Made by a program: the position numbers and the translations under genes
From: Candidatus Aminicenantes bacterium
GTDB taxonomy: Bacteria; Acidobacteriota; Aminicenantia; UBA2199
Direction: 5' to 3'
Assembly: GCA_030639305.1 (NCBI GenBank)
Contig: DAOWCY010000005.1
Coordinates: forward strand, 1,789-65,788
DNA: 64,000 nucleotides
Part shown: positions 17,896-54,235 of the stretch, one piece after another
How the letters are laid out: every line of letters begins with the position of its first letter
Position numbering within the stretch: position 1 is the first letter of the stretch
Notes under the pieces: generated by a model
What the model saw: the letters and a program-made list of their open reading frames with translations, nothing else
The model's database searches: none
What the model was told of the DNA's origin: nothing

Positions 17896-17912
17896 GCTCT
17901 TTAAATTACACC

Positions 17913-19418: not shown

Positions 19419-19750
19419 TTTATTTTTCCCCGGTGGCTGTTTCGTGTAAGTTCCCGTTTTCCGGGATGTTTGTTTTTTTATTGCTGTTCATGACCATAGG
19501 AATTATATCAAATTTGCAGTCATGAATCTATAAAAAATATGGTAATTATTCAGTTTTCGGCCTTTAGCGTTGAGCAAACGGGCATTCGAGAACTCTGAGG
19601 GTTGCTTTTGATTCTAAATTATCAAATATTGTGTTCAAACTTTTTCTGAAAGTGCGGAGTGCCGCTGGGTCCCGACGATGAACCCAATGGGGCCCGCCGG
19701 AGGCCAGAAAAAGTGAAACACCGTCCATCGTCGATTTTCATACATTATCC

Positions 19751-21331: not shown

Positions 21332-21399
21332 GTATTCTTTTTCGCTTTTCCTTTTAAGTTCATCATTTCCAGGATATATCCCGAAGGTTTGAAGTGGAA

Positions 21400-22341: not shown

Positions 22342-22350
22342 ATTGTCCTC

Positions 22351-23625: not shown

Positions 23626-24140
23626 GCAATCCCCTTAAAAAACACATTATTAAACCGGCAGATTCGCATAACTTTAAACAAGGTAAAGAGATACGCGGAA
23701 ATCTTTGTTGATAACACTAATTTTTTTCGGGGATATATCGCATCAATGCCCATATAAGGCATCAATATAGAGACCTGTTTGCGGTTTAAAAAATAACCTT
23801 CTTTTTTTAACCATTCCGTCATCTGCTTGCTCCCATAAAAAGGACATTGCATGTACTTGCCGAAAATCAACCTCATCAAGTAAAAATTATTTGCCGCATT
23901 ACTCTCTTTAAAGTGGTAGTAATAAAGCGATCGACAAAGGCACAAGAGGTCACATTGTCGTAGGATTAAAATTTTACGTTTATCTTTATCCATTTTTCGG
24001 TTTCTGACAAAATTATAGCATTTTGAAAATGGGATGTCAATTTCCAACAAGGATTTACTACGGGATACATCTTTTTTTAAAATTTTCCGAAAAACCGAGT
24101 CGGTGCGTAGAAATGAAGACGCCGTCTTAGAAAAAATCAT
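23622..24140 (-). mobile_element. Truncated IS3-family transposase. Only the OrfB N-terminal HTH_21-like region is present; the integrase core is missing.
   Basis: CDLLCLCRSLYYYHFK...PFYGSKQMTEWLKKEGYFLNRKQVSILMPYMGIDAIYPRKK matches the conserved IS3 OrfB N-terminal pattern (LC..GVSRSGYY...YG.RR....L...G..V.RKRV.RLM...GL.A..RKK). The ORF ends before any DDE core. Confidence 0.45.
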
Positions 24141-28596: not shown

Positions 28597-31500
28597 TTAC
28601 CGGGTCAATTTGAGGGTGCGGCTGTCTTCGATGATATCTATTTTTCCCATATCCATTTTGATGACCCGGTCGGCCGCGTCGAAATAGTGGTCGTCATGGG
28701 TAATAGCGATTACTATTTTTCCTTCTTCTTTCATTCTCTGCAGCAGTTCGCGATAGAAAAAACGCCGGAACCCCGGGTCCTGGTCGGCTGCCACTTCATC
28801 GAACAGGTAAATGGGAGAGTCTTCCAAATAACACTGCATCAAGGCCAGGCGTTTCCTTTGCCCGCCTGAAAGTTCGATGGTGCTGAACTCATTATCTTCG
28901 AGCACAACTTTTTCTTGCAGGCGTAACATTTCCAGGTAATCATCGATTTCCTCTTCCCTGCCGGTTAGGTCTACGTTGTAGAGTTTCGCGAAAAGGTGGA
29001 AATCCCCGAATACTACGGAATAATGCTCGCCCAGGCGGAAATTATCGACTGCTTTGCCGTTGATTTCGATGCTGCCTTCGTCGGGGTGATACAGGCCGGT
29101 CAGCAGTTTCGCCAGGGTGGTTTTGCCGCTGCCGTTGCCGCCGATGATAAACACGATTTCACCTTTTCGGGCTTCGAAATCCATGGGGCCTACGGTGAAT
29201 TTTTCCACGTCGTCAACCGCGTCGTAGGTGAATTTTAATCCTTTGGCGCTGATGGTTTCCACGGACCGGGGTTTCTCGTGGTCCATGCCCTCTAAGACTT
29301 TAGGATCGATATTGGCCGGTATATCCCGTTTGAATCCCCTGATACGGTTCCAGGCTACGCGCATGCGCATAATGGCGGGGATGGCGTTCAACATGGCGTT
29401 GATGGGCCCGATTAGGAAGAGAAGCACCATGATAAAGGCCATCAGGGTGACTGGGGTGATGTTGGGGAATAACCGCGGGATACCGTAGCCTACGGCTCCC
29501 AGGACGATAATAAGCAGCGATTCGCCGATAAGAAAGGCGTTAACAAATTTGATCAGCGCGGTGCTCAATTTTTTACGGAAATCGTCGCAGGCGCGGGCAA
29601 CGTCGTTCCTATATTCTCTTTTCTTGTGGAATTGCAGGCTCAGTTCTTTGAAGCCGTCGATCATGCCGTTCAACAATCCCATGTAGATGTTCTGGGTATC
29701 CCTGGCTTCTTCGAAATATATCTGGGTACGGTGAGTTACGATGGTGTAGACAGTGGCGATCACTCCCACCACCAGCAGGGTAACGGCTGTGGCCCAAAAC
29801 GCGATGGTGGCCAGGAAAAAAAAAGCGCCCATGGTGGTAACGGCGCTGGTAACCAATTGTACCAGGATGTTGGCGGAGTTACCGATTTGCCCGGTATCGT
29901 CGTTCAACGTGGCAAAAACGCGACCTCTCTGGATTTTTTCAAATTTTTGGTAGGTGGTATAGAAGACTTTTTCCAGCAGGTCCAACCTCATGTCGTATAT
30001 AAGGTCGAAGGTAATGCGGATAAGTTTGGTTTGCAGTAATTTGCGGCCGGTTATATAGATGCAAAAAGCGAGACCGAAATTATACAATTGATAAAAGAGC
30101 CCGGCTTCGCTGAATACCGACCGGGTAACCAGGAAAATGACTGCCGCATTTGCTACACCGGCCAATAAGCTGAGTAGCAATACGAAAGGCAGGACCCGGA
30201 TATATTTGTTACGGTGAGGAAACAGGCCGGTGAGGATCGAGGTAAGATACCCGGCTGCCAGGGCAGTGAGAACAGCCGCGATGGCGACAGTGAAACTGAC
30301 GGGAGAAAACACCATGGCCGTGCGCATGGAGACGCCGGCTAAGGTTTTGGGTACGAAATAGAGGCCCAACAGGAAGGGGGCAAAAGCCGGGAGCGTTAGA
30401 AGCGCTTTGAATATTTTTTTCAAGGTAGGCGGGGCAAAGGTGCGTTTACCTCTAACTATGTCGATAAATACGGACACCCAGAAAACCACCACGGCCAGCA
30501 AAAACAATCCTATCATAATGGCTACGATAGAGCTGCCGTTATCGAGATCGTCACCCTGCAAATCGGGTTCCCGGAAGCCTCTTCCCCCGACATAACTCAT
30601 CAAACTTTCGGCAATAAAAGGGGTGAGAGCGCTGCTGCTGTTGGTCAGGACCGCCACCCCGGTTTTTTCCACCGGGTTAAGGATTATAAAACCGGTAAAA
30701 TTGGGATTATTACCGGCGTGATCGATGCGTTTCTCCCGCTCTAAGTAGATGTTCCAGCCGTAACCGTAAGCAGAAAGAGTGCGCCGGTTAAAATGCATGC
30801 TGTCATCCATGCGGTGGGATTTTTCTACCAGGGGGGCCAATCCCGTTTCTATTAGGCCCAGTTGTATCCGCAGCCAGCGGGCCATATCCACGCCGTTGGA
30901 TAAGATATACCCGGCTGCGTTGTTACCGCGGTATACCGGGGCGTCGCAGCGGCGCGCGGCAAAAAAGCCCGTTTTATAACCGGCGGCCATGTGCCCCGGT
31001 GGGTTTTCTTTGTCTACGCCCACCAGGGTGTTCGACAGCCCGGCGGGAGCCAGGATATTTTTTTCCATATAGTTTTCGAAACTCTTTTCCGTGACGGTTT
31101 CGATGACGAAGGCCACTACATCGTAATTGATAGTCGCATATTCGAAGCGTTGACCCGGTTTACTTTTCAATTCGATTCCCGATAATGCGCGGATTGTCTG
31201 CTGCAAGGCATCCGCGTCCGCGCTTTCGGGGATCAAAGAGATACTGCCGAAAGGAATGCCGCTGGTATGGTTTAAACAGTGTTTCAGCGTGACGTCCCGG
31301 TTTTTTTTGCCTTCGAATAGGGCGTAAAACCAGGGTAAATAGCGGTTTACCGGGGCGTCGAGATCGATAAGGCCCTGCTCTGCACAGTGCAGCGCGGCCA
31401 GCCCGGTAAAGGCTTTACTGCAGGATGCCAGTTCGAAAACCGTATTCGCGCTAACCGGTATTTTGTTTTCCCGGTCGGCATAACCATAACCTTTTATGAA

Positions 31501-31702
31501 CGGTTCTTCTTTCCCTTTGACGATAATAAGGCTCAATCCCGGGATAAGACCGTCTTTCATTAAGGAAAGTATTTCCCTGTCGATTTTTTCATAAAAATCT
31601 CCCGGTTTTTCTTCTTTTTCCCGGGAAACGGACGGTAGGCTGAACATAAACAGCACTACCAGAAACAATAAAATAGGGACATTGGATATTTTTGTTTTCA
31701 TT
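28597..31702 (-). CDS. Fusion of a ClbP/ZmaM-like S12 (beta-lactamase-fold) serine peptidase with a SyrD-type ABC exporter (permease plus ATPase).
   Basis: Start reassigned to the ATG at 31702 (RBS AAGGAG; MKTKISNVPILLFLVVLF signal), because the longer ORF start lies inside the repeat element. SxxK motif ASCSKAF and Y-x-N motif YATINYD. Multiple TM helices. Walker A GGNGSGKTT, LSGGQRKRLAL and LFDEVAADQDP (a cyclic-peptide-exporter hallmark). Confidence 0.7.
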
Positions 31703-31739
31703 ATATTGCTTAACTCCTTATAATTTTTTTTCTCTTTTT

Positions 31740-31925
31740 GCCTCCGGCGGCCCCACGCGCGTGGGGAGGCGTTAAGCCGCTTCGCGGCAGGACCCTGCCG
31801 GGGGCCAAACTTTTGAAAAAGTTTGATCAAAACTTTTGTTTATTTAGAATCAAAAGCGCTCACACGCTGCCTCTGCGGCGAAGCCGCTTATACCCTGCCC
31901 ACGTGGTGGGCTTTAAAATCCAAAG
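31740..31925. repeat. Copy of the GC-hairpin/REP-like repeat family (hairpin + GAGGCGTTAAGCCGCTTCGCGGCAGGACCC + inverted GATC-palindrome module + further hairpins).
   Basis: CCCCACGCGCGTGGGGAGGCGTTAAGCCGCTTCGCGGCAGG matches 3029-3076 and 3123-3171. GGGGGCCAAACTTTTGAAAAAGTTTGATCAAAACTTTTG is the reverse complement of 1151-1200 and 3208-3250. Confidence 0.5.
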
Positions 31926-42854: not shown

Positions 42855-44249
42855 CTATTCGTCTTCCAGGTCTTCATTGAATTCTTCCAACATCCGCCGT
42901 TTCTTTTCTCCGTCCAGCCTGCACAGTTCCTTGATCTCGATTTTTCCCAGGTCCTGCGTGAGCATCTGTTCCAGGCTGCGGGCAATCCCTTCGATTATTT
43001 CTTTTTCATACACCCTGCCATTATAATCCAACCGTAACGAAAGCTGCCTATCATAAGATACGTGCACTACAAAATCATAACTGGTATACTCGAAAGTTTC
43101 TACTCCCGATACCTGGAATAGCTGGCTGCGCCCCTGGGCGGCGGCTCCGGCTATCTTTTCACTTATGGGAAAATTCTGGGAAACGAAAATATGATCGAAT
43201 AAATCCCGTTTCATGGGGCTGACGGCCTGGATACTTGCCAAAGAACAATAATGATAAGGTTCGCTCGCCAGGATTTCCTGCTGCACCCGGCGCATTAACT
43301 CGATGAAGTTTTCCCTTTCCCGCACCCGGATGCGCATCGGAACAGTGTTGAGAAATAAGCCGATCATTCTTTCCACACCCTTTATTTCCGCGGGCCGGCC
43401 CGATACCACTGCGCCGAAAATAACATCCCGCTCACCTTTATATTTTCCTAAAACAAGACCCCAGGCTGTTTGCACAAGGGTATTTATTGTCACGGAATTT
43501 TTCCCTACCAGGTTGTTTAAGGCGGAGGTCTGTTCAGTTGTCAATAGGATAGTTACTCTCTGCCTATCGAATCCTCCCCCCCCGGAGGTGCGGGTTTCTA
43601 ACCGGGGGATAAAAGCCGGGGCATTATAATCTTCCAGGTAACTTGTCCAATAGGCCAGAGATTCGCGGATATCTCTTTTTCCCAGCCACTGGATGTAACT
43701 CTTAAAGGGTTTTACCGGGGCTAAATCCGGAGGCCTGTTTTCTAAAAAGCTCCTATAAATCTCCAGGTACTCGCCGATAATTATTCCCATACACCAACCA
43801 TCCATAATAATGTGAGGGTGGCTCCAGGTAAATTCGTATTCATCCCGGGCCAGTTTCACCACTGTGACCCGTATCAACACATCTTTGCTCAATACGAAAG
43901 GACGCTGCCTGTCCTGCTCTTTAATCTCTTTTACCCGGGCTTCTCGTTCGGCTTTAGTCTTTACACTGCCGACGTCCTCGTAGGTGAAATCGATTTTCCT
44001 CTCTTTCATCACTACTTGCACGGGCCGCTTAACCTTTTCATGGATAAAAACCGTGCGCAAAATATCATGGCGCTGCATTAGCGCTTTTAGACTTTTTTTG
44101 ACCGGTTCTATGTCGAGTTCGCCGTGAAGGCGGTATGATACTTGTTCAAAATACGCTCCGGCTGTGTCCCGGTTCAGGGAATAAAATAACATGCCTTCCT
44201 GCATGGGCGTTAAGGGATATATGTCTTCGATATTCGCTTTAGCTGCCAT
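42855..44249 (-). CDS. Free-standing condensation (C) domain protein.
   Basis: 464 aa. N-terminal DIYPLTPMQEGMLF and HHIIMDGW (HHxxxDG). RBS AAGGAGAAAAG. Confidence 0.8.
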   Translation of the reverse strand: MAAKANIEDIYPLTPMQEGMLFYSLNRDTAGAYFEQVSYRLHGELDIEPVKKSLKALMQRHDILRTVFIHEKVKRPVQVVMKERKIDFTYEDVGSVKTKAEREARVKEIKEQDRQRPFVLSKDVLIRVTVVKLARDEYEFTWSHPHIIMDGWCMGIIIGEYLEIYRSFLENRPPDLAPVKPFKSYIQWLGKRDIRESLAYWTSYLEDYNAPAFIPRLETRTSGGGGFDRQRVTILLTTEQTSALNNLVGKNSVTINTLVQTAWGLVLGKYKGERDVIFGAVVSGRPAEIKGVERMIGLFLNTVPMRIRVRERENFIELMRRVQQEILASEPYHYCSLASIQAVSPMKRDLFDHIFVSQNFPISEKIAGAAAQGRSQLFQVSGVETFEYTSYDFVVHVSYDRQLSLRLDYNGRVYEKEIIEGIARSLEQMLTQDLGKIEIKELCRLDGEKKRRMLEEFNEDLEDE

Positions 44250-44315: not shown

Positions 44316-47300
44316 TTATATATCTAATTGGTCCTCTATGGCGTCTATCTCCTCTAAGGATAACTCATTGTGCGTTAAATCGCTGGGGGTGAGCTCTTTG
44401 TCTTCTTTCGACGAACAAAAAGAGATAATGTTTTTTAATTCCTGTTCAAAATTTTCCAGGATCTGCGTGATGGTTTCATTTTTAAATTGTTTTTTGCTGT
44501 AATTTATGGACATTACCAACTGCCGGTTGGCAATCATGCCGTTTATATCGATGTCGAACTCCCGTACTCCTTCCGGGCTCATTGTGCGCCCGGAAGGTTC
44601 GGCGGCGGCACCGAAAGACCTCTTTTCCATGTCCGCGTCAAACTGGCCTAAGTAGTTGAAACTGACCTGGGGTTCTAATTTGAATTCTATGTCCTGCTTA
44701 TGCTTCCCGGGGGTCAAATATTTCAAAATCCCATACCCGATTCCCCGGTTGGGCGCCCGGCGTAAACTCTCTTTGACTTTCTTGATCGAGCTGGATAGAT
44801 CACTCCCGGATGATACATCTAAAATCACCGGGTAGATGGATGTAAACCAGCCTACGGTGCGGTTTATATCTACATGATCTAAAATTTCTTCCCGGCCGTG
44901 ACCTTCCAGGTTGACCAGCACCCTGCCGGAACCCGCCTGCTTGCTAAATGCCAGGCCCAAAGCGCAGAGCAGGATGTCGTTAATTTCAGTGTTGAAGGCT
45001 TCATTGACTTCGGTCAATAAAAGCCGGGTTTCTTCCTCCGCAAGCCGGAAATATCCGCTTAAGGTGTCTTTTATAAGATTATCCGCGCTTTCAAAATCGT
45101 AAGGGATAACCGGTATTTCCATGGACTCCAGGCCGGCCCAATACTCTTTTTCAACCAAAAATCCGGGGCTGGCGGCATATTCCGGCAACTGCCCGGCCCA
45201 GTATTTATAGGAGTCGGTTTTTAAGGGCAGGGAAAAAGACTCCCCCTTACTGAACTGGCGATAAAGGGTGTCGATGTCTTCAAAAAGAATACGCCAGGAA
45301 ATGCCGTCCGTTATTAGGTGATGAAGCACGATCAGCAGCCGGTCGCCGCCGGCTAACCGGAATAATCCCAATTTTAATAGGGGGCCTTTTTCCAAATCGA
45401 TGCTTGCCTGAATTTCGTCGGCTTTGGACAGCAGTTCCGCGGCGGCTTTTTCCTTATCTTCGATGGACCGGAAATCGAAGGTTTTCAAATCGAGAGGATA
45501 GTCGAGATCGTGATTTTCCAGGAAAATCCCGCCGCCTTCCCGGTGAATACTCATCCTGAGCGCGTCATGATGTTCCATTATCTTCTTAAATACGGCCCCG
45601 ACCGCTTCTTCGTCAAATCCTTCCGGCGAAGAAAGCATGACTGCCTGGTTATAATGGTGGGGGTGTATTGTAATTTTCTTGAAGAACTCTTCATGGGCGG
45701 GCAGCAGCGGCGCCCGGCCCGTGACCGGGGCCTGTTCGGGGATTCTTCCCGCTTCTTTGTGTTCCACTTTGTGAGCGAGATCGGTAATCACGGGGTTCTG
45801 GAAAACATCGCTTACTTTGATTTTATAACCTTCATTGTGCAGCCGCGAAACGATCTGGATGGCTTTAATGGAGTCGCCGCCGATCATAAAGAAATTCTCA
45901 TTCACACCGACTTCCTGCCGGCCCAATACGCTTTCCCAGACTTCGACCAGTTTGCTTTCTACTTCGCCTTCGGGTGCGGCATATTCTTCTTTTCTTTCGC
46001 TGCCTACCATGGCGGGGTCCGCCAGGGCGCGGCGGTCTATCTTCCCGGTGGTGGTCAGGGGGAGCTCTTTTAAAGGCACAAAATAGGCGGGGATCATGTA
46101 ATCGGGCAATTTCTCACCGAGGAATCGCCTTAATTCATAGTCCCCGGGGGCAGTGGAAATATCACCTGATGACCGGCGCGGCTCATTGGTGAATAATCCC
46201 TTGTACAGGGGCGTCCCTTTGTAGGTTTTCTCATGATAGGGCATGTTATACTCAAAGGCAATTTTCCGGCCGTCCTTTTTTTCCAGGTGGCCTTTTACTT
46301 TATAATCGGGCCAGGGTTCGCTGCTGCCGAGCGTGCGGATACAATCGGCTTCTATCCGGTCTCCTTTATCGACTTCCAGGGGTGGGGAAAAGGCGGGGAA
46401 ATAAACAGGTTTCCAGATATGCTCCTGGGCTAAGGTGTCGATCAGGTGGTCCGGTACGGTATAAAAATTAATCCAGAGGATAAATCCGTCTAATTTGGTT
46501 TCCCGCTTTATGGTCAGGTTGATCCGGTGGCTGGCTTCATTCTCTATGACGTCCTGAAAATTTATGTCTTCGAAAATACCGGCGTCGGATATGATGCCGG
46601 TTTTGGGTAGATGCTGGATACAAAGCCTGACATCGAATTCATAACCGAACTTTTCAAATATTTTCTCCGTGTATTCCCGGGAGGTAATGCTGAAGGCGGG
46701 TTCATCCCGCAGGGAACCGGGAAGGGTTACGGCCGCAATCTTAGTGACACAGTGGTGCGGGATGACATAACTCTTCTCCTTTAAAAACCGGCGGGCGTCG
46801 TTGTGAAGCACGATGCCGCCTTCCGAACTGCCGATGGAACCGATCTGGTTGGTTAGATTCACCTCCACTTTTTCGGGCAGCTCTACATCACGGGAATCAC
46901 CGTGGATCAATACGATCTTATCTTCCAGGCCGAATTTCTTAAGATTTTCTTTGGCTTTTAAATAGGATTCTTCCATAATTTCGATGGCGTAGACTTTTTC
47001 GGCTCCGGCATCCACTGCTAACCGGGCCAGTATCAGGTCTCTGCCGGTGCCTACTTCTACGACGGTTTTACCTTTTACTATCCGTTCGATGGCTATTTTA
47101 TAACTGTTGTTCTTTAACTTGTCATGGGCCATGGCATAGTACAAAAGATCGTCCCAGATTAAATAATCACCTGCCGAGGGCATCAATTCGGGATCTTTAT
47201 CCGCTTCATATACATAGTATGCGCAGATGAATTTACTGCCGTCTTCTCCTTCTTTGATTACCGCGGCTGCTTCCTTTATAGATTCATGCTGCGATAACCG

Positions 47301-50300
47301 GTTCTCGATCTCTCCTAATTCGATGCGGTAACCCCTGAGCTTGACCTGGTGGTCCGTCCGGCCTAAAAATTCGATTTCCCCGGTGGGCAGCCAACGGGTA
47401 ATATCACCGGTTTTGTATAATTCTTGCCTCCGGCGGGTCAGAACCTTTTTGAAAAAAGGTTCCGACACCTCCAAAAACTTTCGATGAGCGGCTCCGCCGC
47501 GGATAAAACGCTCTGCGGTGAGCTCGGGGTGGTTTAAATAACCGCGGGATACGCCGGCTCCGGCTATGTACAACTCACCGGGTACGCCTACCGGCAGGAG
47601 ACGCAAATCCCCACCCAGTACAAAACATTGCACATTGGCGATGGGCGTTCCCAGGTTTACCTTCTCACCGGGGGAACATTTTCCGCGCAGGGTGTCGATG
47701 GTGGTTTCGGTGGGGCCGTAATGGTTATATAATTCATACCCTTTGGCGATTAAACTGTCTTTGAGGGCGTCATCGAGCCTGTCACCTCCTGATATCACCG
47801 CCCGTAAACTGGAGAATTGCCCCTGCTGTTCATCCGCCAGCAGGGTTCTCAGGGTGGCGGGTACAAAATTGATGATGGTGATGCGGTTCTCTTCGATATA
47901 ACGGGAGAAGTCTTCCCTGTTGGAGATTAATTCCTTGTGGGGCATGTATACCGACGCGCCGCGGTGCAGGGCGCTGAATATCTGCTCTACGCTGGGATCG
48001 AAGGTGAAACCGGTCAACTGGATGATCCGGTCTTCTTCACGGAGATCGTAAGCTTCGGCAAACCAGTGCAGTACATTGACTACATTTTTGTGTTCCACGA
48101 CGACGCCTTTGGGGGCGCCGGTCGATCCGGAGGTGTACATGATATAGGCGGGCAGGGTTGGTTCCACGGGGAACCCCGGGTTGGCGACGGACTGCTTACT
48201 TAATGTTTCGCTTAATGTGTCGGCCATCAAAATTTGCCTGGCAAACCGGTAACTCTTTTGCGATGTCCGGGGCGCAAAGGCAATGCCGTCGATTTTTTCC
48301 AGTTCTTCCCGGCCGGGAAGCCGGCCTGAATTTTCCAGTATCTTTTCTATAATTTCCAGGAAAGTGACTTCCCCTTCGCTTAGCACGGCTAAATCTATAT
48401 TACGGTCCTGCAGTAGGGGCGCCGTGTTGCGGGTGGCATAAGGGCCGCCGGCAATCAATGGCCCGGCGAAACCCCACTGCCGTATCAATGAGATGGTTTT
48501 ATGGAAAAAATCCTTGTAAAAGGTTAAGGTGCGCACACCGATAACATCAGGTTGAAAATCATCCAAGAGGGTTTTTAAGTCTTCATAATTGTCGAAATCG
48601 ATGCGGGATTTGATTATTTTGCCGTTGATTTCACTGCCTAACTGTTCCTGCAAATAGGTCAATATATATATGGGACCCAGGGGTGGTTCCACTACATCAT
48701 ACAACATATCCGTGTCCCAACTGAAAAATTGAGACAAATCGACCAATAACAACTTCAACGCATCTTCCGCGGGTTGATGGGCCGGGAAAGCGCTGCGCAA
48801 TTTTCGATTCAATTCGGGAACGGCAAAATTTTCTTCCTCTAAAAAGCTTTCGATTCCTAAGTCCGCTTCATCTATCCCGGCCAGGTCCAATATATCGGAA
48901 AAACTATCGATTCCCGAGGGCAGGTAACTGTCATACTTCTGCACGATTTCATCTTCGGTCAGCACCCTGGCCTGGTAAGGGAGCACATGACGCAGCCGCT
49001 CTTTGTTAAGAAAATAATCATTGAGGAATTCAGCCTGGTAATTTTTGGTGAAGCTTTCGCTGAATGGGGATGTGGGCGAATATTCATGTAATGCCAGGTC
49101 TTCGCATTTTAAAATATCTTCGCGCAATACGCCGTGCTCCATGGCCAGGTCGGCCATCTCGGTGCCGGGGTATATCTTTAATATAAATACATAAGGGAAA
49201 TGAAGCCATTCCTGCTCTTTAATGAATTCCAGGGTCAACCGGGCTTCCTCTTCGGTTTCCGTGGGAAAACCGTGGATAGTGAACAACTCTAACACTACCT
49301 GGGGGTACTTTTTGCAGAAGTATTCCACGTTCTCACGAAATTTTTCCAGGTGTAAATTTTTGTCGATCATCTTCTGCAGGCGGGGGGATGCGGTTTCTAA
49401 GGCCATGGCCGTGGTCGCCAGCCCTGCTTCCACCAGCAGGTCGATATAGTCCTTATTCAATAGATCGCCGCGCAGCCCGTTGGGGAAAAATAGCTGTATA
49501 TCCAGGTTGCTTTTGATGATTTTTTCGAAGAGTTTTTCGCCGTTCTTCAAGTTGATGTTGAAGATGTCGTCGAAGATGGAAAAACGGCGGAACCCCATGT
49601 CATAATATAGTTGTAATTCTTCGAAGATATTCTCCGCGGTGCGGAAGGTGTGCTTGCGGGGCCATACTTTACTGCAGTAGAAGCAGTTATAGGGGCAGCC
49701 GCGGGCTGTTTGCAGGGAAATGATGTTCTTCACCATTACCTGGCCGATGTAGCGGTTGTATTTTTCATAATCGACTAAAGAACGATCCGGTATGGGCAGG
49801 GAATCCAGGTTGGCCAGGGGTTTCCTGGGGCAGGTGGTATGAATAGGAACACTGCGCTCTTCCAGGCCCTGCAAAGAGGTAAAGGAATGATCCGAAAACA
49901 CTTTGCCGTGGGTCAACAAATGGGAGGCGCTGCTGTCTTCCAGCATGGTGACCGCACGCTGCTTCGGCATCTGCGGGTCCATGGGCAGGTAAGCTCCCCC
50001 GGCTTTCATTATGCCTAACATCCCGGTTACTAAATCCGTGGAACGTTCTTGCATAAGGCCGACGACACTATTCGCGGTAACGCCCCGGTCTTTCAAATAG
50101 TGGGCCAGGCGGTTGGATTCTTCATTCAATTCCCGGTAGGTAAGAGTGCGGCGCCCGGCGTTGATATCCGGGTTTTTTTCCTGCGCATCCGGCTGAGCGG
50201 ATGCCCCGGCGGGGAGGTCCGGCGCGGCGACGGCTGTATTTCCCGGTGTCTTCTCCACCTGTTCCTCGAAGAGCTGGTGAATGGCTTTGTCGATGGGATA

Positions 50301-51116
50301 CTCCCGGTGCGTGTCGTTAAATTCCACCAGCAGTTGTTTTATCTCTGCTTCGGAAAGCATCTCCAGTTGGTTCGTTTTTTGGCTAACGTCGCTCAGGGCA
50401 TTCAGCAGCAGGTGTGAAAAATGAGACATCAACCGGGCCATGGTTTCCTCCCGGTATAGAGTAGGATGGTATTCCAGGACTGTTTCTATCCTGTCATCTA
50501 CCCTAAAAAAAGAAAAAAGGACGGCGGGCCCGGTATGCCGGATATGTTTTTTATCGTGGATGTTTTCTAATAAAAGGGCGGTATCGAACAAGGGGAAGCG
50601 GTCGCCGGAGGCGGGCATATTCAGTTTATACAATAAGGTGCTCATGGGGTAATTCTGGTTCTCCTCCGCTTCGGTAATGGTGCGCCTGACATCGAGCAGC
50701 AGGTCTTTAAAAGTCATATCTTCCCGCAGCCGGTTCCTTAAAGGCAAAACTGTGTTGATAAACTCCCCATCTATCTCCTGTTTGTAGATCGGGGCGCCGG
50801 TTATTATGTCGCTGCGCCCTGTATATTTATGTATGGTCAGCACCAACCCGGCGGTCAAAATCATAAATAACCGGGAGTCGGATTTATTGCTTAACTTCAG
50901 CAGGGAAGAGACAAGTTCACCGGGCAATGTAATGGGCATCGAAGCTGTCTCTTTATCGCCTTTTCCCTTTTCGCCTTCCCCATAGTCCGCGGGGAAACTG
51001 TTTTTTTCCAAATCCAAAGGAAAGCCGGACAATTTCTCCAGCCAGTAATCTCCTTCTTTAGTCAATTGACCGGCTGCGACTTGCAGTTCGCCATCATATT
51101 GTATATTTTTCTTCAT
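44316..51116 (-). CDS. NRPS with the order [N-terminal half-C] - A(interrupted twice) - T - E. A radical-SAM core plus a B12-binding-like domain sits between motifs A2 and A3, and a PRMT-like methyltransferase sits between A8 and A9.
   Basis: A1/A2 (LTYRELNEESNRLAHYL, LKAGGAYLPMDP), then CPYNCFYC, then AYIMYTSGSTGAPKGV (A3) ... VKLRGYRIELGEIE (A8), then the MT (VVEVGTGRDL), then A9/A10 (LPDYMIPAYF...GKIDRRAL), then T (IGGDSI), then E domain (HHLITDGISW). Confidence 0.85.
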   Translation of the reverse strand: MKKNIQYDGELQVAAGQLTKEGDYWLEKLSGFPLDLEKNSFPADYGEGEKGKGDKETASMPITLPGELVSSLLKLSNKSDSRLFMILTAGLVLTIHKYTGRSDIITGAPIYKQEIDGEFINTVLPLRNRLREDMTFKDLLLDVRRTITEAEENQNYPMSTLLYKLNMPASGDRFPLFDTALLLENIHDKKHIRHTGPAVLFSFFRVDDRIETVLEYHPTLYREETMARLMSHFSHLLLNALSDVSQKTNQLEMLSEAEIKQLLVEFNDTHREYPIDKAIHQLFEEQVEKTPGNTAVAAPDLPAGASAQPDAQEKNPDINAGRRTLTYRELNEESNRLAHYLKDRGVTANSVVGLMQERSTDLVTGMLGIMKAGGAYLPMDPQMPKQRAVTMLEDSSASHLLTHGKVFSDHSFTSLQGLEERSVPIHTTCPRKPLANLDSLPIPDRSLVDYEKYNRYIGQVMVKNIISLQTARGCPYNCFYCSKVWPRKHTFRTAENIFEELQLYYDMGFRRFSIFDDIFNINLKNGEKLFEKIIKSNLDIQLFFPNGLRGDLLNKDYIDLLVEAGLATTAMALETASPRLQKMIDKNLHLEKFRENVEYFCKKYPQVVLELFTIHGFPTETEEEARLTLEFIKEQEWLHFPYVFILKIYPGTEMADLAMEHGVLREDILKCEDLALHEYSPTSPFSESFTKNYQAEFLNDYFLNKERLRHVLPYQARVLTEDEIVQKYDSYLPSGIDSFSDILDLAGIDEADLGIESFLEEENFAVPELNRKLRSAFPAHQPAEDALKLLLVDLSQFFSWDTDMLYDVVEPPLGPIYILTYLQEQLGSEINGKIIKSRIDFDNYEDLKTLLDDFQPDVIGVRTLTFYKDFFHKTISLIRQWGFAGPLIAGGPYATRNTAPLLQDRNIDLAVLSEGEVTFLEIIEKILENSGRLPGREELEKIDGIAFAPRTSQKSYRFARQILMADTLSETLSKQSVANPGFPVEPTLPAYIMYTSGSTGAPKGVVVEHKNVVNVLHWFAEAYDLREEDRIIQLTGFTFDPSVEQIFSALHRGASVYMPHKELISNREDFSRYIEENRITIINFVPATLRTLLADEQQGQFSSLRAVISGGDRLDDALKDSLIAKGYELYNHYGPTETTIDTLRGKCSPGEKVNLGTPIANVQCFVLGGDLRLLPVGVPGELYIAGAGVSRGYLNHPELTAERFIRGGAAHRKFLEVSEPFFKKVLTRRRQELYKTGDITRWLPTGEIEFLGRTDHQVKLRGYRIELGEIENRLSQHESIKEAAAVIKEGEDGSKFICAYYVYEADKDPELMPSAGDYLIWDDLLYYAMAHDKLKNNSYKIAIERIVKGKTVVEVGTGRDLILARLAVDAGAEKVYAIEIMEESYLKAKENLKKFGLEDKIVLIHGDSRDVELPEKVEVNLTNQIGSIGSSEGGIVLHNDARRFLKEKSYVIPHHCVTKIAAVTLPGSLRDEPAFSITSREYTEKIFEKFGYEFDVRLCIQHLPKTGIISDAGIFEDINFQDVIENEASHRINLTIKRETKLDGFILWINFYTVPDHLIDTLAQEHIWKPVYFPAFSPPLEVDKGDRIEADCIRTLGSSEPWPDYKVKGHLEKKDGRKIAFEYNMPYHEKTYKGTPLYKGLFTNEPRRSSGDISTAPGDYELRRFLGEKLPDYMIPAYFVPLKELPLTTTGKIDRRALADPAMVGSERKEEYAAPEGEVESKLVEVWESVLGRQEVGVNENFFMIGGDSIKAIQIVSRLHNEGYKIKVSDVFQNPVITDLAHKVEHKEAGRIPEQAPVTGRAPLLPAHEEFFKKITIHPHHYNQAVMLSSPEGFDEEAVGAVFKKIMEHHDALRMSIHREGGGIFLENHDLDYPLDLKTFDFRSIEDKEKAAAELLSKADEIQASIDLEKGPLLKLGLFRLAGGDRLLIVLHHLITDGISWRILFEDIDTLYRQFSKGESFSLPLKTDSYKYWAGQLPEYAASPGFLVEKEYWAGLESMEIPVIPYDFESADNLIKDTLSGYFRLAEEETRLLLTEVNEAFNTEINDILLCALGLAFSKQAGSGRVLVNLEGHGREEILDHVDINRTVGWFTSIYPVILDVSSGSDLSSSIKKVKESLRRAPNRGIGYGILKYLTPGKHKQDIEFKLEPQVSFNYLGQFDADMEKRSFGAAAEPSGRTMSPEGVREFDIDINGMIANRQLVMSINYSKKQFKNETITQILENFEQELKNIISFCSSKEDKELTPSDLTHNELSLEEIDAIEDQLDI
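46046..47129 (-). other. Class I SAM methyltransferase with PRMT-like features, embedded between A8 and A9 of the same A domain.
   Basis: Motif I VVEVGTGRDLILARLAVDAGAEKVYAIE. The post-motif II/III region resembles protein arginine methyltransferases (IVLIHGDSRDVELPEKVEVNLTNQIGS). Confidence 0.5.
48116..48689 (-). other. B12-binding-like (Rossmann) domain following the embedded radical-SAM core, in permuted order relative to canonical class B enzymes.
   Basis: PLGPIYILTYL...FQPDVIGVRTL...PLIAGGPYAT...IDLAVLSEGE parallels the B12-domain motifs of the stand-alone enzyme (LLTLLPFWAPL...PALVGFSVF...VIMGGGVFS...FIGEGE). Confidence 0.45.
48836..49799 (-). other. Radical-SAM core domain embedded inside the NRPS adenylation domain.
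   Basis: The codons for TARGCPYNCFYCS were verified on the DNA at ~49660-49697. They are preceded by DSLPIPDRSLVDYEKY, as in class B radical-SAM enzymes. Confidence 0.65.
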
Positions 51117-51330: not shown

Positions 51331-53046
51331 TCAAAAATCAAAGTCGCCTTCTTCTTGCAATTGACTGCGGGCCTCCACCAACTTTATAACCCCGCCGGTA
51401 TCATCGATATAACCGGCTCCCTTTTCAAATTCCATAATCGACGGAACTGCATTCTTCTGCAGCTTTTCCCAGCGCCGGTCCGCCCGGTAAAGGTCGTACA
51501 TGGTAAAAGGATTGGGGATCCCCAAAGATTCACAGTGCTCCACGAACCGGTACATGCGCCGGTACACTTCCTCCCTGGAGGGTTCACATTCGGGATACCA
51601 GGTCTGGATAATCAACATCTCCTTCATCCAGGCGGGATAAAGCAGGTAGGTCTTCTCCTCCCAGCCGTTCATGCCGGCCTGGGCCGAAGGGTAATAGTAA
51701 AAGGGACATGCCCAGACTTCATAAATATCATCTTTTAACGTTTCAACCATATCCAGGGTCAATTGGAAATCTTCCTCGGTTTCACCGGGGTGGCCGATAA
51801 TCCAACAGGTTGAGGTCTTAATGCCGGCACGGGCCAGGCTGGATACCGCTTGCTGAATTTGATTGGGGGTGATCTTTTTATTCATCAGTTCCAACACCCT
51901 GGGAGAGGCGCTCTCGAGACCCAATTTCGCTTTGTAAAAACCGCCCCGGCGCCATAACAACGTGTTTTCGATATCACAGACATGTTTATCCGCACGCAGG
52001 TAACCGTCCCAGTACATGATTTTACCGGAGTTAATAAACTCCCGGGACAGATCGTGAACCACGGGATTGAGCAAGGAATCGCACATCAGGAATAACTGTT
52101 GACCGTATTTTTCATATAATCCCGTCATTTCGGAAACGATCTGGGGGGCGCTCTTTTTACGGTACTTACCATAAAAAACGGTCTCGGAACAAAAGCTGCA
52201 TTGAAAGGGACAACTGCGCGAGGTGTAGGCTGCGACAAACGGGTACTGGCCGATGTCGAAATCGGAATAATCGGGCAGGGCGACCGTGGAAAGATCCAGG
52301 GTCTTAGAGCCGATGTCGGCCAGGGTATACACTCTCTGCTCCGCGGGCAGCCGGTCTTCCAGGTAGTCCAGGAACAGCTTCTCGCCTTCCCCGATGAAAA
52401 TTTTATCCACATAGGGGGCTTTCTCCAGGAAAAAATCCAGGTTGGGAGAACCCAAAGCAAGCTGCTCCGAAAAAACACCGCCGCCCATAATGACGTTGAT
52501 ATCCGGGTTTTTCGCTTTGGTTAACCGGGCGGCGAAAAGAGAGGCGGGCAGGGTGCTTTCAAATACGGAAAAGCCTACCAAAGCGGGTTTTTCGCGTTCC
52601 AGCAGGGCGGTGAACCAGCGCTCCAAACGGGTATAAAAATCGGCAAGAACACGGTTTAAACGCCGCACCACCGTGTCATCGATTTCGCAGAAGAAAGTCT
52701 TCTGCACCAGGATGCGAATCGCATGGTTGTACTTTTCGGCGTCTTTTTTTTCGTCATCTTCCAGGTAAGCCATCATGTGGTTTTGCAGCACATCTTTTCC
52801 GACTACATAAAAGTTGCCCCATTTTTCAGCGGGAACGACCTCTTTCAAAAGATCGAAATAAACAGCGCTGAAATCGCGGAATTCCTCCGCCGCGTTCCCG
52901 TCAAAAGTGGCGACGGTGAAGTTCCGCTCCTGTAAAAAGCTCTTCAGGTTGGCGATTCCCACGGGAGGAATCAATGGGGCCCAAAAGGGCAGTAAGGTTA
53001 GGAGAATTTTCTCCCGGCCTTTTCCAGGTTTAGAATGAGAAGTCAT
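51331..53046 (-). CDS. Stand-alone class B (B12-binding) radical SAM enzyme. Probable C-methyltransferase or other B12-rSAM tailoring enzyme.
   Basis: N-terminal B12-binding-like domain followed by the radical-SAM core SRSCPFQCSFCSE. Start placed at ATG 53046 (MTSHS...), which has an AGGAGG RBS and a 17-nt overlap with the upstream gene. C-terminal tail EEGDFDF. Confidence 0.8.
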   Translation of the reverse strand: MTSHSKPGKGREKILLTLLPFWAPLIPPVGIANLKSFLQERNFTVATFDGNAAEEFRDFSAVYFDLLKEVVPAEKWGNFYVVGKDVLQNHMMAYLEDDEKKDAEKYNHAIRILVQKTFFCEIDDTVVRRLNRVLADFYTRLERWFTALLEREKPALVGFSVFESTLPASLFAARLTKAKNPDINVIMGGGVFSEQLALGSPNLDFFLEKAPYVDKIFIGEGEKLFLDYLEDRLPAEQRVYTLADIGSKTLDLSTVALPDYSDFDIGQYPFVAAYTSRSCPFQCSFCSETVFYGKYRKKSAPQIVSEMTGLYEKYGQQLFLMCDSLLNPVVHDLSREFINSGKIMYWDGYLRADKHVCDIENTLLWRRGGFYKAKLGLESASPRVLELMNKKITPNQIQQAVSSLARAGIKTSTCWIIGHPGETEEDFQLTLDMVETLKDDIYEVWACPFYYYPSAQAGMNGWEEKTYLLYPAWMKEMLIIQTWYPECEPSREEVYRRMYRFVEHCESLGIPNPFTMYDLYRADRRWEKLQKNAVPSIMEFEKGAGYIDDTGGVIKLVEARSQLQEEGDFDF

Positions 53047-54235
53047 CGTCCTCCTCTTTAGACATTTTCGACTCCGCTTTAACAAATTTTGTGCGGGGTT
53101 CGACTTTTTTCGGTTTTACTGTATCTAAATATTTTAAATCGAAATTAATATCCTTTGCCAGTTTCTCCAGCAGTCCCGGCGGGGGATCGAGTTCCAGGTC
53201 TTCCAGGGCCTGTTCCCGGGTCATTTCCCCGGCCCTGACAATAGTGGAATATTCATCGTGGTAGTGGGTGTATTTCCTGATCTTCATATCCCGCACCGAG
53301 TTGAGCCAGATCATTTCGCAGTTGGTGGTGCGGGCCGGGAAACCGGAACCTTCTTCCAATGGCTCCCAGTCGAATCTAGCTTTGCATATTTTTTTCAATT
53401 CTTCCTTGTCGGTTTTGTAGAATTTGAATACGAAAAATGGGATGAATAATATTTTTTCAGGATCTACCGGTTTTTCCAGGTCCCTGCGGTCCTGGTAAAT
53501 GACCTGCTGATTCAACACGGCCCATTTTTTAGTGAATTGATCGAGAAAATCGGTATCGCCGCTGTCCAGGATGACATTAATCATCTTACTATACCAGTCC
53601 CGGGCTTTTTTTTCGTCATGCATCATGGCGGTCTGCCCTTTGGAGTAACCGTTGATCACCAGCGGGACATTAAAATTAGCGGCGATTTCCAGGCCGTTGA
53701 GATACAACATATTGCCGCAGGGGAAACAGGGGCTGACGTCGGGTTCGGTGGACTCGTTAAAAATCTTAAAGAGCCGCCTCATGAACTTTAACTCATTCTT
53801 CCAGATCAGCAGATCGACATCCAGTTCCTTGCAGAGTTTTTCCACGTTGCGCGTGGCAATGGGGTCGTCCCAGCCGTGGTCGCTGTGAAAAACCATGGGC
53901 TTTAAACCGAAATCCTCAACGATGCGGATCAGGGTAAAACAACTGTCTACTCCACCGCTCAAGGGGACCAGCAGGTCATATTTACGCCCCAGGTTCTTGT
54001 ACTTCTGTAAAGCGGCTTTAACCTCTTCTTCGCTTTGAAAGCGTTCCGGTTCCCGTTCTTTTTCCCCGGCGTCGAAAGTGTGACAGATATTACATACGCC
54101 GTTTTCATCAAAGGTAATTCCCGGATAGGTCTCCGGTAATACACATCTTGTACATACTTGCATGGTATGCCTCCTTGTTTTTTTAATTTTTACCATTACA
54201 TGGCGGTATCGATGAGCATGTTCGACATAGTTCAC
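53030..54235 (-). CDS. PP-loop ATP pyrophosphatase of the N-acetyl-sugar-amidotransferase-like (WbuX/WbpG-type) family.
   Basis: N-terminal Zn-ribbon CTRCVLPETYPGITFDENGVCNICH and the PP-loop SGGVDS motif. C-terminal tail EEDDDFSF. Confidence 0.7.
   Translation of the reverse strand: MNYVEHAHRYRHVMVKIKKTRRHTMQVCTRCVLPETYPGITFDENGVCNICHTFDAGEKEREPERFQSEEEVKAALQKYKNLGRKYDLLVPLSGGVDSCFTLIRIVEDFGLKPMVFHSDHGWDDPIATRNVEKLCKELDVDLLIWKNELKFMRRLFKIFNESTEPDVSPCFPCGNMLYLNGLEIAANFNVPLVINGYSKGQTAMMHDEKKARDWYSKMINVILDSGDTDFLDQFTKKWAVLNQQVIYQDRRDLEKPVDPEKILFIPFFVFKFYKTDKEELKKICKARFDWEPLEEGSGFPARTTNCEMIWLNSVRDMKIRKYTHYHDEYSTIVRAGEMTREQALEDLELDPPPGLLEKLAKDINFDLKYLDTVKPKKVEPRTKFVKAESKMSKEEDDDFSF

What the first reader, a model, noticed from the sequence alone, without database searches (positions are those of the whole stretch)
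46046..47129. A second insert in the same A domain: a PRMT-like methyltransferase between motifs A8 and A9.
After VKLRGYRIELGEIE (A8) comes a ~380-aa class I SAM methyltransferase (VVEVGTGRDLILARLAVDAGAEKVYAIE...IVLIHGDSRDVELPEKVEV). Only after it do A9/A10 appear (LPDYMIPAYF...GKIDRRAL). Its resemblance to protein-arginine methyltransferases differs from the usual NRPS N-MT inserts. The same A domain is therefore interrupted twice, once by the rSAM insert and once by this MT, which is rare.
Basis: partly seen in the sequence, partly recalled or inferred. Interest (0 to 1): 0.6.

Follow-up and report, generated by a model that had tools for sequence, protein, structure and literature searches.

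The report
PRMT-fold methyltransferase inside NRPS adenylation domain
One amino-acid-activating domain of a peptide assembly line from an uncultured Aminicenantes bacterium carries two inserted enzymes, a cobalamin radical-SAM domain and a methyltransferase shaped like eukaryotic protein-arginine methyltransferases; the methyltransferase type is already catalogued and common, but this variant and its pairing with the radical-SAM insert appear undescribed.

Summary
The 2266-aa NRPS ORF (44316-51116, minus strand) has a ~355-aa insert between motifs A8 and A9 (aa 1303-1657, window 46146-47210). The PRMT likeness is real. All top PDB sequence hits are PRMTs. The AlphaFold model (pLDDT 88.9) matches PRMT6/CARM1 over ~335 columns. 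A profile comparison with a type I PRMT gives 99.4% probability. A canonical NRPS N-MT shows only SAM-motif similarity.

This insert type is not rare or new. [quoted passage not shown] 2020 (predicted Tyr O-methylase). It occurs in 214 species genomes, mostly in Tyr-coded modules.

Three things are unusual here:
- The host pocket code DPENIGHIDK is not Tyr-like. It resembles Arg/Orn codes.
- The first Glu of the PRMT double-E loop is Asn ("TNQIG"). This is part of a conserved sub-clade signature (Y19W, E121N/Q).
- Every sub-clade member with upstream sequence also carries a permuted B12-radical-SAM insert between A2 and A3.

I read it as an active side-chain methyltransferase with a re-tuned acceptor pocket, acting on the carrier-bound residue. 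The acceptor atom is unknown. Verdict: a new variant of a known kind.

The parts
44316..51116 (-). NRPS gene, 2266 aa: half-C, then A interrupted by rSAM/B12 and by the MT, then T, then an E-like domain.
   Evidence: ORF list and translation. Pfam and NCBIfam domains. The exact protein is in public data as a Candidatus Aminicenantes MAG protein, annotated only 'AMP-binding protein, partial' or 'hypothetical'.
50328..51068 (-). N-terminal half of a condensation domain only (aa 17-263). It matches Pfam Condensation profile positions 190-456.
49860..50219 (-). A domain, first piece (A1 LTYRELNE, A2 KAGGAYLPMD).
   Evidence: Motif positions. The AMP-binding hit is split into two stretches.
48192..49859 (-). 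First insert (aa ~420-975): radical-SAM core (CPYNCFYC) followed by a B12-binding-like domain. This is the reverse of the usual order in class B rSAM enzymes.
   Evidence: Pfam Radical_SAM 5.6e-19. The rSAM part aligns to positions ~170-400 of B12-rSAM families, and insert residues 393-533 align to positions 17-156 of the KedN5 family. The best PDB hit is AprD4, 5e-13. There are more than 759 homologues.
47211..48191 (-). A domain core, A3-A8, with specificity code D-P-E-N-I-G-H-I-D-(K).
   Evidence: Motifs. Code extracted by alignment to GrsA-PheA. Position 331 (D) was read by hand from NHYGPTETTID.
46146..47210 (-). Second insert (aa 1303-1657): the PRMT-fold SAM methyltransferase that is the subject of this finding.
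47088..47168 (-). N-terminal helix region DYLIWDDLLYYAMAHDKLKNNSYKIAI. It is the counterpart of the PRMT YFxxY motif and SAM-carboxylate Arg region. W replaces the second Tyr and K replaces the Arg.
   Evidence: hhalign columns. Conservation table.
47025..47063 (-). SAM motif I, VVEVGTGRDLILA. It reads GxGxxL where the type III consensus is GxGxxA.
   Evidence: Motif definition from PMC8341866.
46980..46997 (-). Post-I motif KVYAIE (the acidic residue that binds the SAM ribose in class I MTs). It aligns to KVYAVE of a type I PRMT.
   Evidence: E77 is >=90% conserved in the family.
46818..46868 (-). Double-E-loop equivalent, VEVNLTNQIGSIGSSEG. The first Glu is replaced by Asn (MT-numbering N121). 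The second Glu (E130) is kept.
   Evidence: Aligned to SEWMGFYLLHEA of a type I PRMT. The family consensus is VDVCVSEIxGxIGSSEG.
46395..46427 (-). THW-loop equivalent, QEHIWKPVYFP. The Trp is conserved. The loop His position is Ile.
46017..46145 (-). A domain, last piece (A9 LPDYMIPAYF, A10 GKIDRRAL).
   Evidence: AMP-binding_C hit at aa 1661-1692.
45771..45953 (-). Carrier (T) domain with the GGDSI motif. It is the presumed tether for the substrate of both inserts.
   Evidence: Pfam PP-binding 9.4e-13. Motif position.
44361..45686 (-). C-family domain (HHLITDG) with the TIGR01720 tail, read as an epimerisation domain.
   Evidence: Pfam Condensation aa 1811-2252. TIGR01720 at aa 2107-2260, 171 bits against a cutoff of 74. 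The E assignment is an inference from what is known about TIGR01720 and GGDSI carriers.

Best explanation
The insert is a SAM-dependent methyltransferase with the full protein-arginine-methyltransferase architecture: N-terminal helix, Rossmann domain and beta-barrel. It belongs to the lineage catalogued as 'type III' M domains of interrupted A domains.

It sits in the A8-A9 loop of the small C-terminal A subdomain. Like other embedded M domains, it most likely acts in cis on the aminoacyl thioester carried by the module's own T domain, after adenylation and loading.

This copy belongs to a distinct sub-clade in which the acceptor-binding pocket has been re-tuned. The first Glu of the double-E loop is Asn or Gln, the YFxxY Tyr is Trp, and the NQ members alone also have Leu changed to His at position 136. 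The host A domain has an Arg/Orn-like pocket (DPENIGHIDK) rather than a Tyr pocket.

My reading is that it methylates a side-chain heteroatom, most likely a nitrogen of a basic side chain, on a residue that is also processed by the B12-radical-SAM insert of the same A domain (probably C-methylation). The residue is then epimerised and handed to the free-standing C domain encoded next.

Shown: position, fold, homology, retained SAM motifs, clade structure and co-occurrence with the rSAM insert.
Inferred: catalytic activity, carrier-bound substrate, acceptor atom, identity of the amino acid, and order of the two modifications.
For: Fold and homology:
- PDB phmmer hits are PRMT6, 7, 9, 3, CARM1, PRMT1 and PRMT5. 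PRMT1 and PRMT5 are covered into the barrel.
- The AF2 model has pLDDT 88.9. Its 50 best Foldseek matches are PRMTs over ~320-366 columns.
- hhalign to a type I PRMT gives 99.4% probability and maps the YFxxY, motif I, post-I, double-E and THW regions one to one.

Membership of the embedded-M lineage:
- 45-51% identity to inserts at the same A8-A9 site in 214 genomes. These include Moorena producens 3L and M. bouillonii PNG modules with the Tyr code DASTVAAVC.
- The type is described in PMC8341866. PRMT likeness was noted in PMC10127204.

Likely active:
- G54, G56, E77, G104 and E130 are kept.
- 10 of 67 family-conserved positions differ, but nearly all changes are conservative (E>D, Y>W, R>K, D>E, S>T, L>I/F).
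- Y19W and E121N/Q, and in the five NQ members L136H, recur in relatives only ~50% identical (P0061, P0043, P0167, L082, L083). This points to selection, not decay.
- The 6.8-kb ORF is intact.

Non-Tyr, basic-type host pocket:
- DPENIGHIDK shares 6 of 10 residues plus 2 conservative changes with DVEDIGAIEK. That code was experimentally tied to Arg incorporation in ApnA A1 (PMC5311044).
- Related modules read DVE[DNS]xGAIT.

Link with the rSAM insert:
- Among MT domains with >=850 upstream residues, 11 of 16 in the window's 24-leaf clade carry the rSAM insert, against 0 of 145 outside it.
- All NQ-clade members with upstream sequence have it.
Against: - No member of this M-domain type has, to my knowledge, been assayed. 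Its O-methylase role is inferred from product structures (PMC8341866).
- The first double-E Glu is essential in PRMTs (my own knowledge of PRMT1 mutagenesis) and is missing here. The Arg that binds the SAM carboxylate in PRMTs is Lys in this copy.
- This copy is among the five most divergent of 243.
- Within the NQ clade the host codes differ (DPENIGHID, DAENIGAV-, DVMNFGIIN). A single shared side-chain acceptor is therefore not obvious.
- The A-domain assignment rests only on resemblance of the 10-residue code. Whole-domain similarity to solved A domains is uninformative.
- The closest rSAM-bearing relative (L081, code DPENIGHIE) has no MT insert at all, so the two inserts are not obligatorily coupled.
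Confidence: 0.6

Rival explanations
1. It is an ordinary type III M domain doing what the type is assumed to do: O-methylation of a side-chain hydroxyl (Tyr or another hydroxylated residue) on the carrier.
For: It shares 45-47% identity and the same insertion site with M domains of Tyr-coded modules (DASTIAAVC/DASTVAAVC) in cyanobacteria. Those are linked to O-methyl-Tyr products in the literature. Arg and Tyr pockets can be near-identical: ApnA A1 with code DVESIGAIAK takes both. Four rSAM-bearing relatives have Tyr-like DGTSTAEVM codes.
Against: The window's code DPENIGHIDK shares only D235 and K517 with the Tyr codes. It carries an acidic residue at position 331, as in the Arg-only ApnA genotypes. 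The window's sub-clade has replaced the Glu that every Tyr-coded member keeps.
Confidence: 0.2
2. It is a catalytically dead, structural remnant kept because the A subdomain now folds around it.
For: The first double-E Glu is lost and the SAM-carboxylate Arg is Lys. There are 10 deviations at 67 conserved positions, against a family median of 2. The close relative L081 does without the insert.
Against: The substitutions are conservative and are shared by ~50%-identical relatives as a fixed NQ/W/H signature. The SAM-binding glycines, the ribose-binding Glu and the second loop Glu are intact. The model is confidently folded.
Confidence: 0.12
3. It has switched to backbone (alpha-amino) N-methylation. 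This would explain why one MT sub-clade serves A domains with different side-chain pockets.
For: NQ-clade hosts have dissimilar codes. None of these modules has a separate canonical N-MT, since the distance from MT end to A10 is only 21-47 aa. A few family members sit in Ile/Val-coded modules (L044 DAFFLGV-T, L001 DAVFIGGTL).
Against: In family 5b architectures this M type is followed by a separate backbone N-MT, and the products are N,O-dimethylated (L025, L047 and L020). There is no sequence relationship to backbone N-MTs.
Confidence: 0.08

Closest known systems
Type III M domain, Ms(O,Tyr,a8-a9), of interrupted A domains. These are families 2b and 5b of Lundy, Mori & Garneau-Tsodikova 2020, e.g. 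DidJ and VatN, plus LynB3-OMT of lyngbyapeptin B.
   Same: Same insertion site (after the L(V/A/I)(A/G)(Y/F) strand, before A9). It is homologous over the whole ~340 aa (45-51% identity to genomic members). It has the GxG SAM motif with a one-residue shift, and the same PRMT-like fold.
   Different: The host A-domain code is not Tyr. GxGxxA reads GxGxxL. The conserved loop VSE(I/L) reads LTNQ. It belongs to a separate clade found in Aminicenantes/Acidobacteriota-type metagenomes. Its A domain carries an additional rSAM/B12 insert between A2 and A3. No such family appears in the 2020 classification.
Eukaryotic type I protein arginine methyltransferases (PRMT1, PRMT6, CARM1).
   Same: Two-domain architecture and motif order: YFxxY-like helix, motif I, post-I Glu, 'LPEKVD' strand, loop with the second Glu, Trp of the THW loop, and beta-barrel with a helical arm.
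   Different: Only ~20% identity. The first double-E Glu is Asn, the THW His is absent, and the SAM-carboxylate Arg is Lys. It is embedded in an NRPS and presumably acts on a carrier-bound amino acid, not a protein.
Canonical backbone N-methyltransferase inserts (type I Mb, e.g. TioS A4-M4-A4, PDB 5WMM).
   Same: Same A8-A9 insertion point and the same logic: methylation of the aminoacyl-S-carrier after loading (PMC11355689).
   Different: No detectable homology beyond the SAM motif. blastp gives E = 0.045 against the N-MT of locus L025. 5WMM matches only the A-domain part of the protein and is not among the 60 listed PDB matches of the insert.
Natural di-interrupted A domains (family 7: Mb at a2-a3 plus Ms at a6-a7).
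   Same: Two catalytic inserts in one A domain, one of them at a2-a3.
   Different: Here the a2-a3 insert is a permuted B12-radical-SAM enzyme rather than a class I MT. The second insert is at a8-a9.

Membership tests
PRMT (protein arginine methyltransferase) family | Class I Rossmann SAM-binding domain with motif I and a post-I acidic residue. | tested here: met
   VVEVGTGRD aligns to VLDVGAGT-G and KVYAIE aligns to KVYAVE of a type I PRMT. Sub-threshold Pfam MT hits.
PRMT (protein arginine methyltransferase) family | C-terminal beta-barrel domain packed on the Rossmann domain. | tested here: met
   The AF2 model has strands from residue ~196 to 323. Foldseek aligns ~320-366 columns to PRMT6/CARM1 with TM 0.64-0.77. 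phmmer covers PRMT1 residues 14-288.
PRMT (protein arginine methyltransferase) family | Double-E loop: two invariant glutamates nine residues apart that hold the guanidinium. | tested here: not met
   The window has TNQIGSIGSSEG. The first Glu is Asn and the second Glu is present. The wider family does keep both, as SE(I/L)xGxIGxxEG.
PRMT (protein arginine methyltransferase) family | THW loop. | tested here: inconclusive
   EHIWKP aligns to ETHWKQ. The Trp is conserved (>=90% of the family), but the His column holds Ile here and Cys or Ser in most of the family.
PRMT (protein arginine methyltransferase) family | Methylates arginine guanidino nitrogens of proteins. | not testable with these tools
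   Needs an enzyme assay. The context (an A-domain insert) argues for a carrier-bound amino acid, not a protein.
Type III M domain of interrupted A domains (Ms(O,Tyr,a8-a9)) | Inserted between A8 and A9, directly after the L(V/A/I)(A/G)(Y/F)xxx boundary strand. | tested here: met
   A8 is at aa 1258-1271, the boundary FICAYYV at aa 1296-1302, and A9 at aa 1670. Boundary definition.
Type III M domain of interrupted A domains (Ms(O,Tyr,a8-a9)) | Sequence homology to family 2b/5b M domains. | tested here: met
   44-46% identity to the inserts in Moorena Tyr modules L025 and L042. Alignment. E = 3e-100 to the best family member.
Type III M domain of interrupted A domains (Ms(O,Tyr,a8-a9)) | SAM motif GxGxxA. 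| tested here: not met
   The window reads GTGRDL, with Leu in place of Ala. A few other members also vary here.
Type III M domain of interrupted A domains (Ms(O,Tyr,a8-a9)) | Host A domain selects Tyr, and the product carries O-methyl-Tyr. | tested here: not met
   The host code is DPENIGHIDK, against DASTIAAVC or DASTVAAVC in the Tyr group. The product is unknown.
Canonical NRPS backbone N-methyltransferase (type I Mb) | Sequence homology to Mb domains (EIGCGTG ... NSV(I/V)QYF motifs). | tested here: not met
   blastp against the Mb of L025 gives E = 0.045, 22% identity over the SAM motif only. No Mb structure appears among the 60 listed PDB matches of the insert, nor among the 50 best Foldseek matches.

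The most novel reading that the evidence does not exclude
The two inserts form a functional pair that builds an unusual alkylated side chain on a carrier-bound, probably basic, D-configured residue. One option is that the PRMT-fold domain installs an N- (or O-) methyl group and the B12-radical-SAM insert then extends it to ethyl or isopropyl. That is the logic known from cystobactamid CysS (recalled from memory, not tested here). The other option is that they give a C,N-dimethylated arginine- or ornithine-type residue. The Glu-to-Asn/Gln switch in the MT would then be the adaptation to this different acceptor. This would be a new family of trifunctional A domains, and the first radical-SAM enzyme embedded in an NRPS domain.
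Probability: 0.2. Interest if true: 0.8.

Novelty: new variant of a known kind. Interest (0 to 1): 0.55.

Why it matters
Embedded M domains are used to predict and to engineer methylation in nonribosomal peptides. This M type is missed by Pfam thresholds and is annotated only as 'AMP-binding protein' or 'hypothetical'.

The analysis shows three things:
- The so-called Tyr O-methylase type is a true PRMT homologue.
- It serves many non-Tyr modules, including Arg-like ones. That raises the possibility of PRMT-like guanidino methylation on NRPS carriers.
- One sub-clade has exchanged a catalytic-loop Glu and travels with a B12-radical-SAM insert in the same A domain.

The last point extends the known catalogue of interrupted A domains. 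It also gives a compact single-polypeptide system for studying radical C-methylation of carrier-bound amino acids in uncultured anaerobes.

Tried and rejected
- Canonical N-MT identity: rejected.
- Generic 'any class I MT' reading: rejected, because homology extends through the N-terminal helix and the barrel.
- Inferring the amino acid from whole-domain similarity to solved A domains. The apparent strong LgrA hit is just the sum of two A domains, and ApnA A1 scores like all others. Uninformative.
- Literature look-ups of the specificity codes found only the ApnA Arg codes.
- Literature searches for rSAM-interrupted A domains or PRMT-type Arg methylation in NRPS found nothing relevant beyond the two cited papers. 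The library is limited to open-access papers.
- Testing whether the neighbouring stand-alone B12-rSAM and WbuX-like genes travel with the architecture: no conserved association in the 136 fetched loci.
- A simple rule linking Glu>Asn/Gln to amide (Gln-like) host codes: rejected. Gln-like codes occur with both SE and SQ/SN loops.
- The count from the representative-library search (86,665 at E <= 0.001; 5,001 at E <= 1e-30) is inflated by the A8/A9 flank columns in the profile. It should not be read as family size.
- The NJ tree has no bootstrap support. The Fisher test ignores phylogenetic non-independence.
Full report
**Observation.**
The finding lies in one uninterrupted ORF on the minus strand, 44316-51116, 2266 aa. 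Residue n starts at base 51116-3(n-1).

All ten A-domain core motifs are present, but in three blocks:
- A1-A2 at aa 325-380.
- A3-A8 at aa 991-1271.
- A9-A10 at aa 1670-1698.

Between A2 and A3 lies a radical-SAM core (CPYNCFYC, aa 474-481) followed by a B12-binding-like region. Between A8 and A9 lies the insert of this finding.

Its true limits are the A-subdomain strand FICAYYV (aa 1296-1302) and the helix YELRRFLGEK (aa 1660-). That gives about aa 1303-1657, or window 46146-47210. The insert is ~355 aa, not ~380.

**Is it a PRMT-like methyltransferase?**
Yes.
- Pfam alone would not call it. All methyltransferase models score below their curated cut-offs, and PRMT5 and PRMT5_C appear only as weak hits.
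- Against all PDB sequences the best matches are exclusively PRMTs: PRMT6 at 1.6e-11, then PRMT7, PRMT9, PRMT3 and CARM1. PRMT1 and PRMT5 are covered well into the C-terminal barrel.
- An AlphaFold2 model built on 22 family sequences is confident (pLDDT 88.9, pTM 0.88). It shows a Rossmann domain followed by a beta-barrel with a helical excursion.
- Its 50 best Foldseek matches in the PDB are PRMT6, CARM1 or plant PRMT chains, aligned over ~320-366 columns with TM 0.64-0.77.
- A profile of the window's sub-clade aligns to a bona fide type I PRMT (P0023) with 99.4% probability and E = 2.3e-21 over 286 columns. The alignment puts the following in register:

| Window | Type I PRMT |
|---|---|
| DYLIWDD | DYFESYED |
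| MAHDKLKNNSYKIAI | MLSDVARNKAYKKAI |
| VVEVGTG | VLDVGAG |
| KVYAIE | KVYAVE |
| LPEKVEVNLTNQIGSIGSSEG | LPEKVDIIVSEWMGFYLLHEA |
| EHIWK | ETHWK |

- A canonical backbone N-MT insert (the second M domain of locus L025) matches only across the SAM motif, at E = 0.045.

**Is this kind of insert rare?**
No.
- A scan of one genome per species found 214 loci. Many are in cyanobacteria (Moorena, Nostoc, Scytonema, Microcystis). Others are in Pyrinomonadaceae and other Acidobacteriota, Chloroflexota and Proteobacteria.
- An exhaustive profile search returned at least 150 clusters at 50% identity that score above 570 bits across the whole profile. Nearly all are inside multi-thousand-residue NRPSs. 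The raw totals from that search are inflated by A8/A9 flank columns.
- Lundy et al. 2020 classify this insert as the 'type III' M domain, Ms(O,Tyr,a8-a9). It carries a GxGxxA SAM motif and occurs in families 2b and 5b (DidJ, VatN). Its Tyr O-methylase role is predicted from product structures. That paper does not mention PRMTs.
- The resemblance to arginine methyltransferases was noted for LynB3-OMT of lyngbyapeptin B.

**What is different in this copy?**
I extracted the host A-domain specificity code and the catalytic loop for 251 family members and for 55 further metagenome loci.

The host codes fall into groups:
- The largest group has the classical Tyr code DASTIAAVC or DASTVAAVC with loop VSEIVGAIGGSEG.
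- A second large group has DVE[DNS][IV]GAIT-type codes with loop VSEIIGTIGSSEG.
- ApnA A1 genotypes DVEDIGAIEK and DVESIGAIEK incorporate Arg only. DVESIGAIAK incorporates Arg and Tyr (PMC5311044). So this second group is probably Arg-selecting.
- The window's code DPENIGHIDK belongs with that group. It shares six identities and two conservative changes with DVEDIGAIEK, including the acidic residue at position 331. It shares nothing beyond D235 and K517 with the Tyr codes.

The double-E loop differs:
- The family as a whole keeps the PRMT double-E loop with the exact PRMT spacing.
- The window reads VEVNLTNQIGSIGSSEG. The first Glu is Asn and the second Glu is kept.

The window's copy is divergent overall:
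- It deviates at 10 of 67 positions that are >=90% conserved in the family. The family median is 2, and this copy ranks fifth of 243.
- The changes are conservative.
- The SAM-binding glycines, the ribose-binding Glu and the second loop Glu are intact.

The key changes are not private to this sequence:
- A neighbour-joining tree places the window with P0154 (70% identical), P0061, P0043 and P0167 (about 50%).
- All of these have x-N-Q-(I/C)-G, Trp in place of the YFxxY Tyr, and His at position 136.
- Two more members came from metagenomes, L082 and L083.
- The next two branches, P0030 and P0149, have Gln at the Glu position.

A fixed, co-varying signature across ~50%-identical sequences argues for a re-tuned acceptor pocket rather than decay.

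**The two inserts together.**
- Twelve of the 150 best representative proteins contain a homologue of the window's rSAM insert. All fall in one 24-leaf clade of the MT tree.
- Among MT domains with enough upstream sequence, 11 of 16 inside that clade have the rSAM insert, against 0 of 145 outside it. This comparison is not corrected for phylogeny.
- P0154, P0061 and P0043 show the same order: rSAM, B12, A core, MT.
- The rSAM insert is a class B enzyme with its two domains in reversed order.
- It has more than 759 relatives. Most are free-standing ~550-580-aa proteins. Others are embedded in A domains of Aminicenantes, Acidobacteriota, Deferrimicrobium and Deltaproteobacteria MAGs.
- The coupling is not obligatory. 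The closest rSAM relative (75% identical) is in L081. It sits in an A domain with nearly the same code (DPENIGHIE), and that domain runs straight from A8 to A9 with no MT.
- I found no paper describing a radical-SAM-interrupted A domain. The only natural di-interrupted family described pairs two class I MTs at a2-a3 and a6-a7.

**Context.**
The exact protein is recorded from a Candidatus Aminicenantes MAG. It is annotated 'AMP-binding protein, partial' or 'hypothetical'.

The gene lies in a minus-strand NRPS-PKS cluster. In order of transcription:
1. Two NRPS genes.
2. A WbuX-like PP-loop amidotransferase.
3. A stand-alone B12-rSAM gene.
4. This gene.
5. A free C domain.
6. An A-T-C-A-T NRPS.
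7. A KS-AT-KR-ACP-TE PKS.
8. A beta-lactamase/ABC fusion.

Within the protein itself:
- The N-terminal 'C' is only the C-terminal half of a condensation domain.
- The T domain has GGDSI.
- The last domain carries the TIGR01720 tail. I read this as an epimerisation domain, which is an inference.

**Mechanism.**
By analogy with characterised embedded M domains, which methylate only the aminoacyl-S-carrier after loading (summarised in PMC11355689), I propose this sequence:
1. The A domain adenylates a basic, Arg/Orn-like amino acid and loads it on T.
2. The phosphopantetheine arm presents it to the B12-rSAM insert (probably C-methylation) and to the PRMT-fold insert (heteroatom methylation, most likely a side-chain nitrogen).
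3. The residue is epimerised and condensed.

Only the anatomy is shown. Activity, substrate, acceptor atom and order are inferred.

The rivals are O-methylation as in the Tyr group, a dead structural domain, and a switch to alpha-N-methylation. All remain open and are scored in the report.

**Verdict.**
The insert type is already catalogued and common. The window's copy is a distinct variant: a non-Tyr host, an altered catalytic loop, and a recurrent, apparently undescribed architecture of rSAM insert plus PRMT-fold MT insert in one A domain.

Noticed in passing
window 48192-49859 (-), aa ~420-975 of the NRPS: The insert between A2 and A3 is a class B (cobalamin) radical-SAM enzyme with its domains in reversed order: rSAM core first, then the B12-binding domain. 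It has more than 759 homologues. Most are free-standing ~550-580-aa proteins, often with several paralogues per contig. I found no literature on rSAM-interrupted A domains.
   Followed up: partly
L081 3676-9225: The closest relative of the rSAM insert (75% identical) is in an NRPS module with code DPENIGHIE. It has the rSAM insert but no MT insert. The gene is also split by an in-frame TAG at 6322-6324, between the B12 region and A3.
   Followed up: partly
window 51331-53085 (-) and 53030-54235 (-): A stand-alone B12-binding radical-SAM gene in the conventional domain order lies next to a WbuX-like PP-loop amidotransferase (TIGR03573, 162 bits, below cutoff). Their ORFs overlap by 56 nt. Both sit between NRPS genes. 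Their roles are unknown, and they are not conserved next to related NRPS loci.
   Followed up: partly
window 50328-51068 (-), aa 17-263: The NRPS starts with only the C-terminal half of a condensation domain (Pfam profile positions 190-456, no HHxxxDG). The preceding NRPS gene ends in a full C domain, and a free-standing C domain (42855-44249) follows.
   Followed up: partly
loci L004, L005, L010, L015, L006, L009, L029, L038, L073 and others: Many PRMT-fold M domains with an intact double-E loop sit in modules with DVE[DN]xGAIT codes. These resemble the experimentally Arg-specific ApnA A1 codes. They are candidates for genuine guanidino methylation on an NRPS carrier.
   Followed up: partly
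L032, L050, L053, L064, L067, L079; P0001: Free-standing ~440-450-aa versions of the same MT occur in Nostoc, Scytonema and Komarekiella genomes. P0001, the one checked (precomputed PF18563), has an N-terminal TubC-type docking domain, which would suggest a trans-acting form.
   Followed up: no
window 28597-31830 (-): A single 1077-aa ORF fuses a serine beta-lactamase/transpeptidase-like domain to an ABC transporter ATPase, at the end of the NRPS-PKS cluster. It may serve export, self-resistance or product release.
   Followed up: no
window 7091-24140: A low-GC (36-43%) island separates housekeeping genes (pyruvate kinase, RlmN-like, DEAD/DSHCT helicase) from the biosynthetic cluster. It encodes a 2405-aa protein with a C-terminal AAA ATPase region, a SIR2-like protein, a Schlafen/AlbA_2-HATPase protein, DUF4062-TPR, a YhcG PDDEXK nuclease and an HTH_21 transposase fragment. 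It looks like a defence or mobile island.
   Followed up: no
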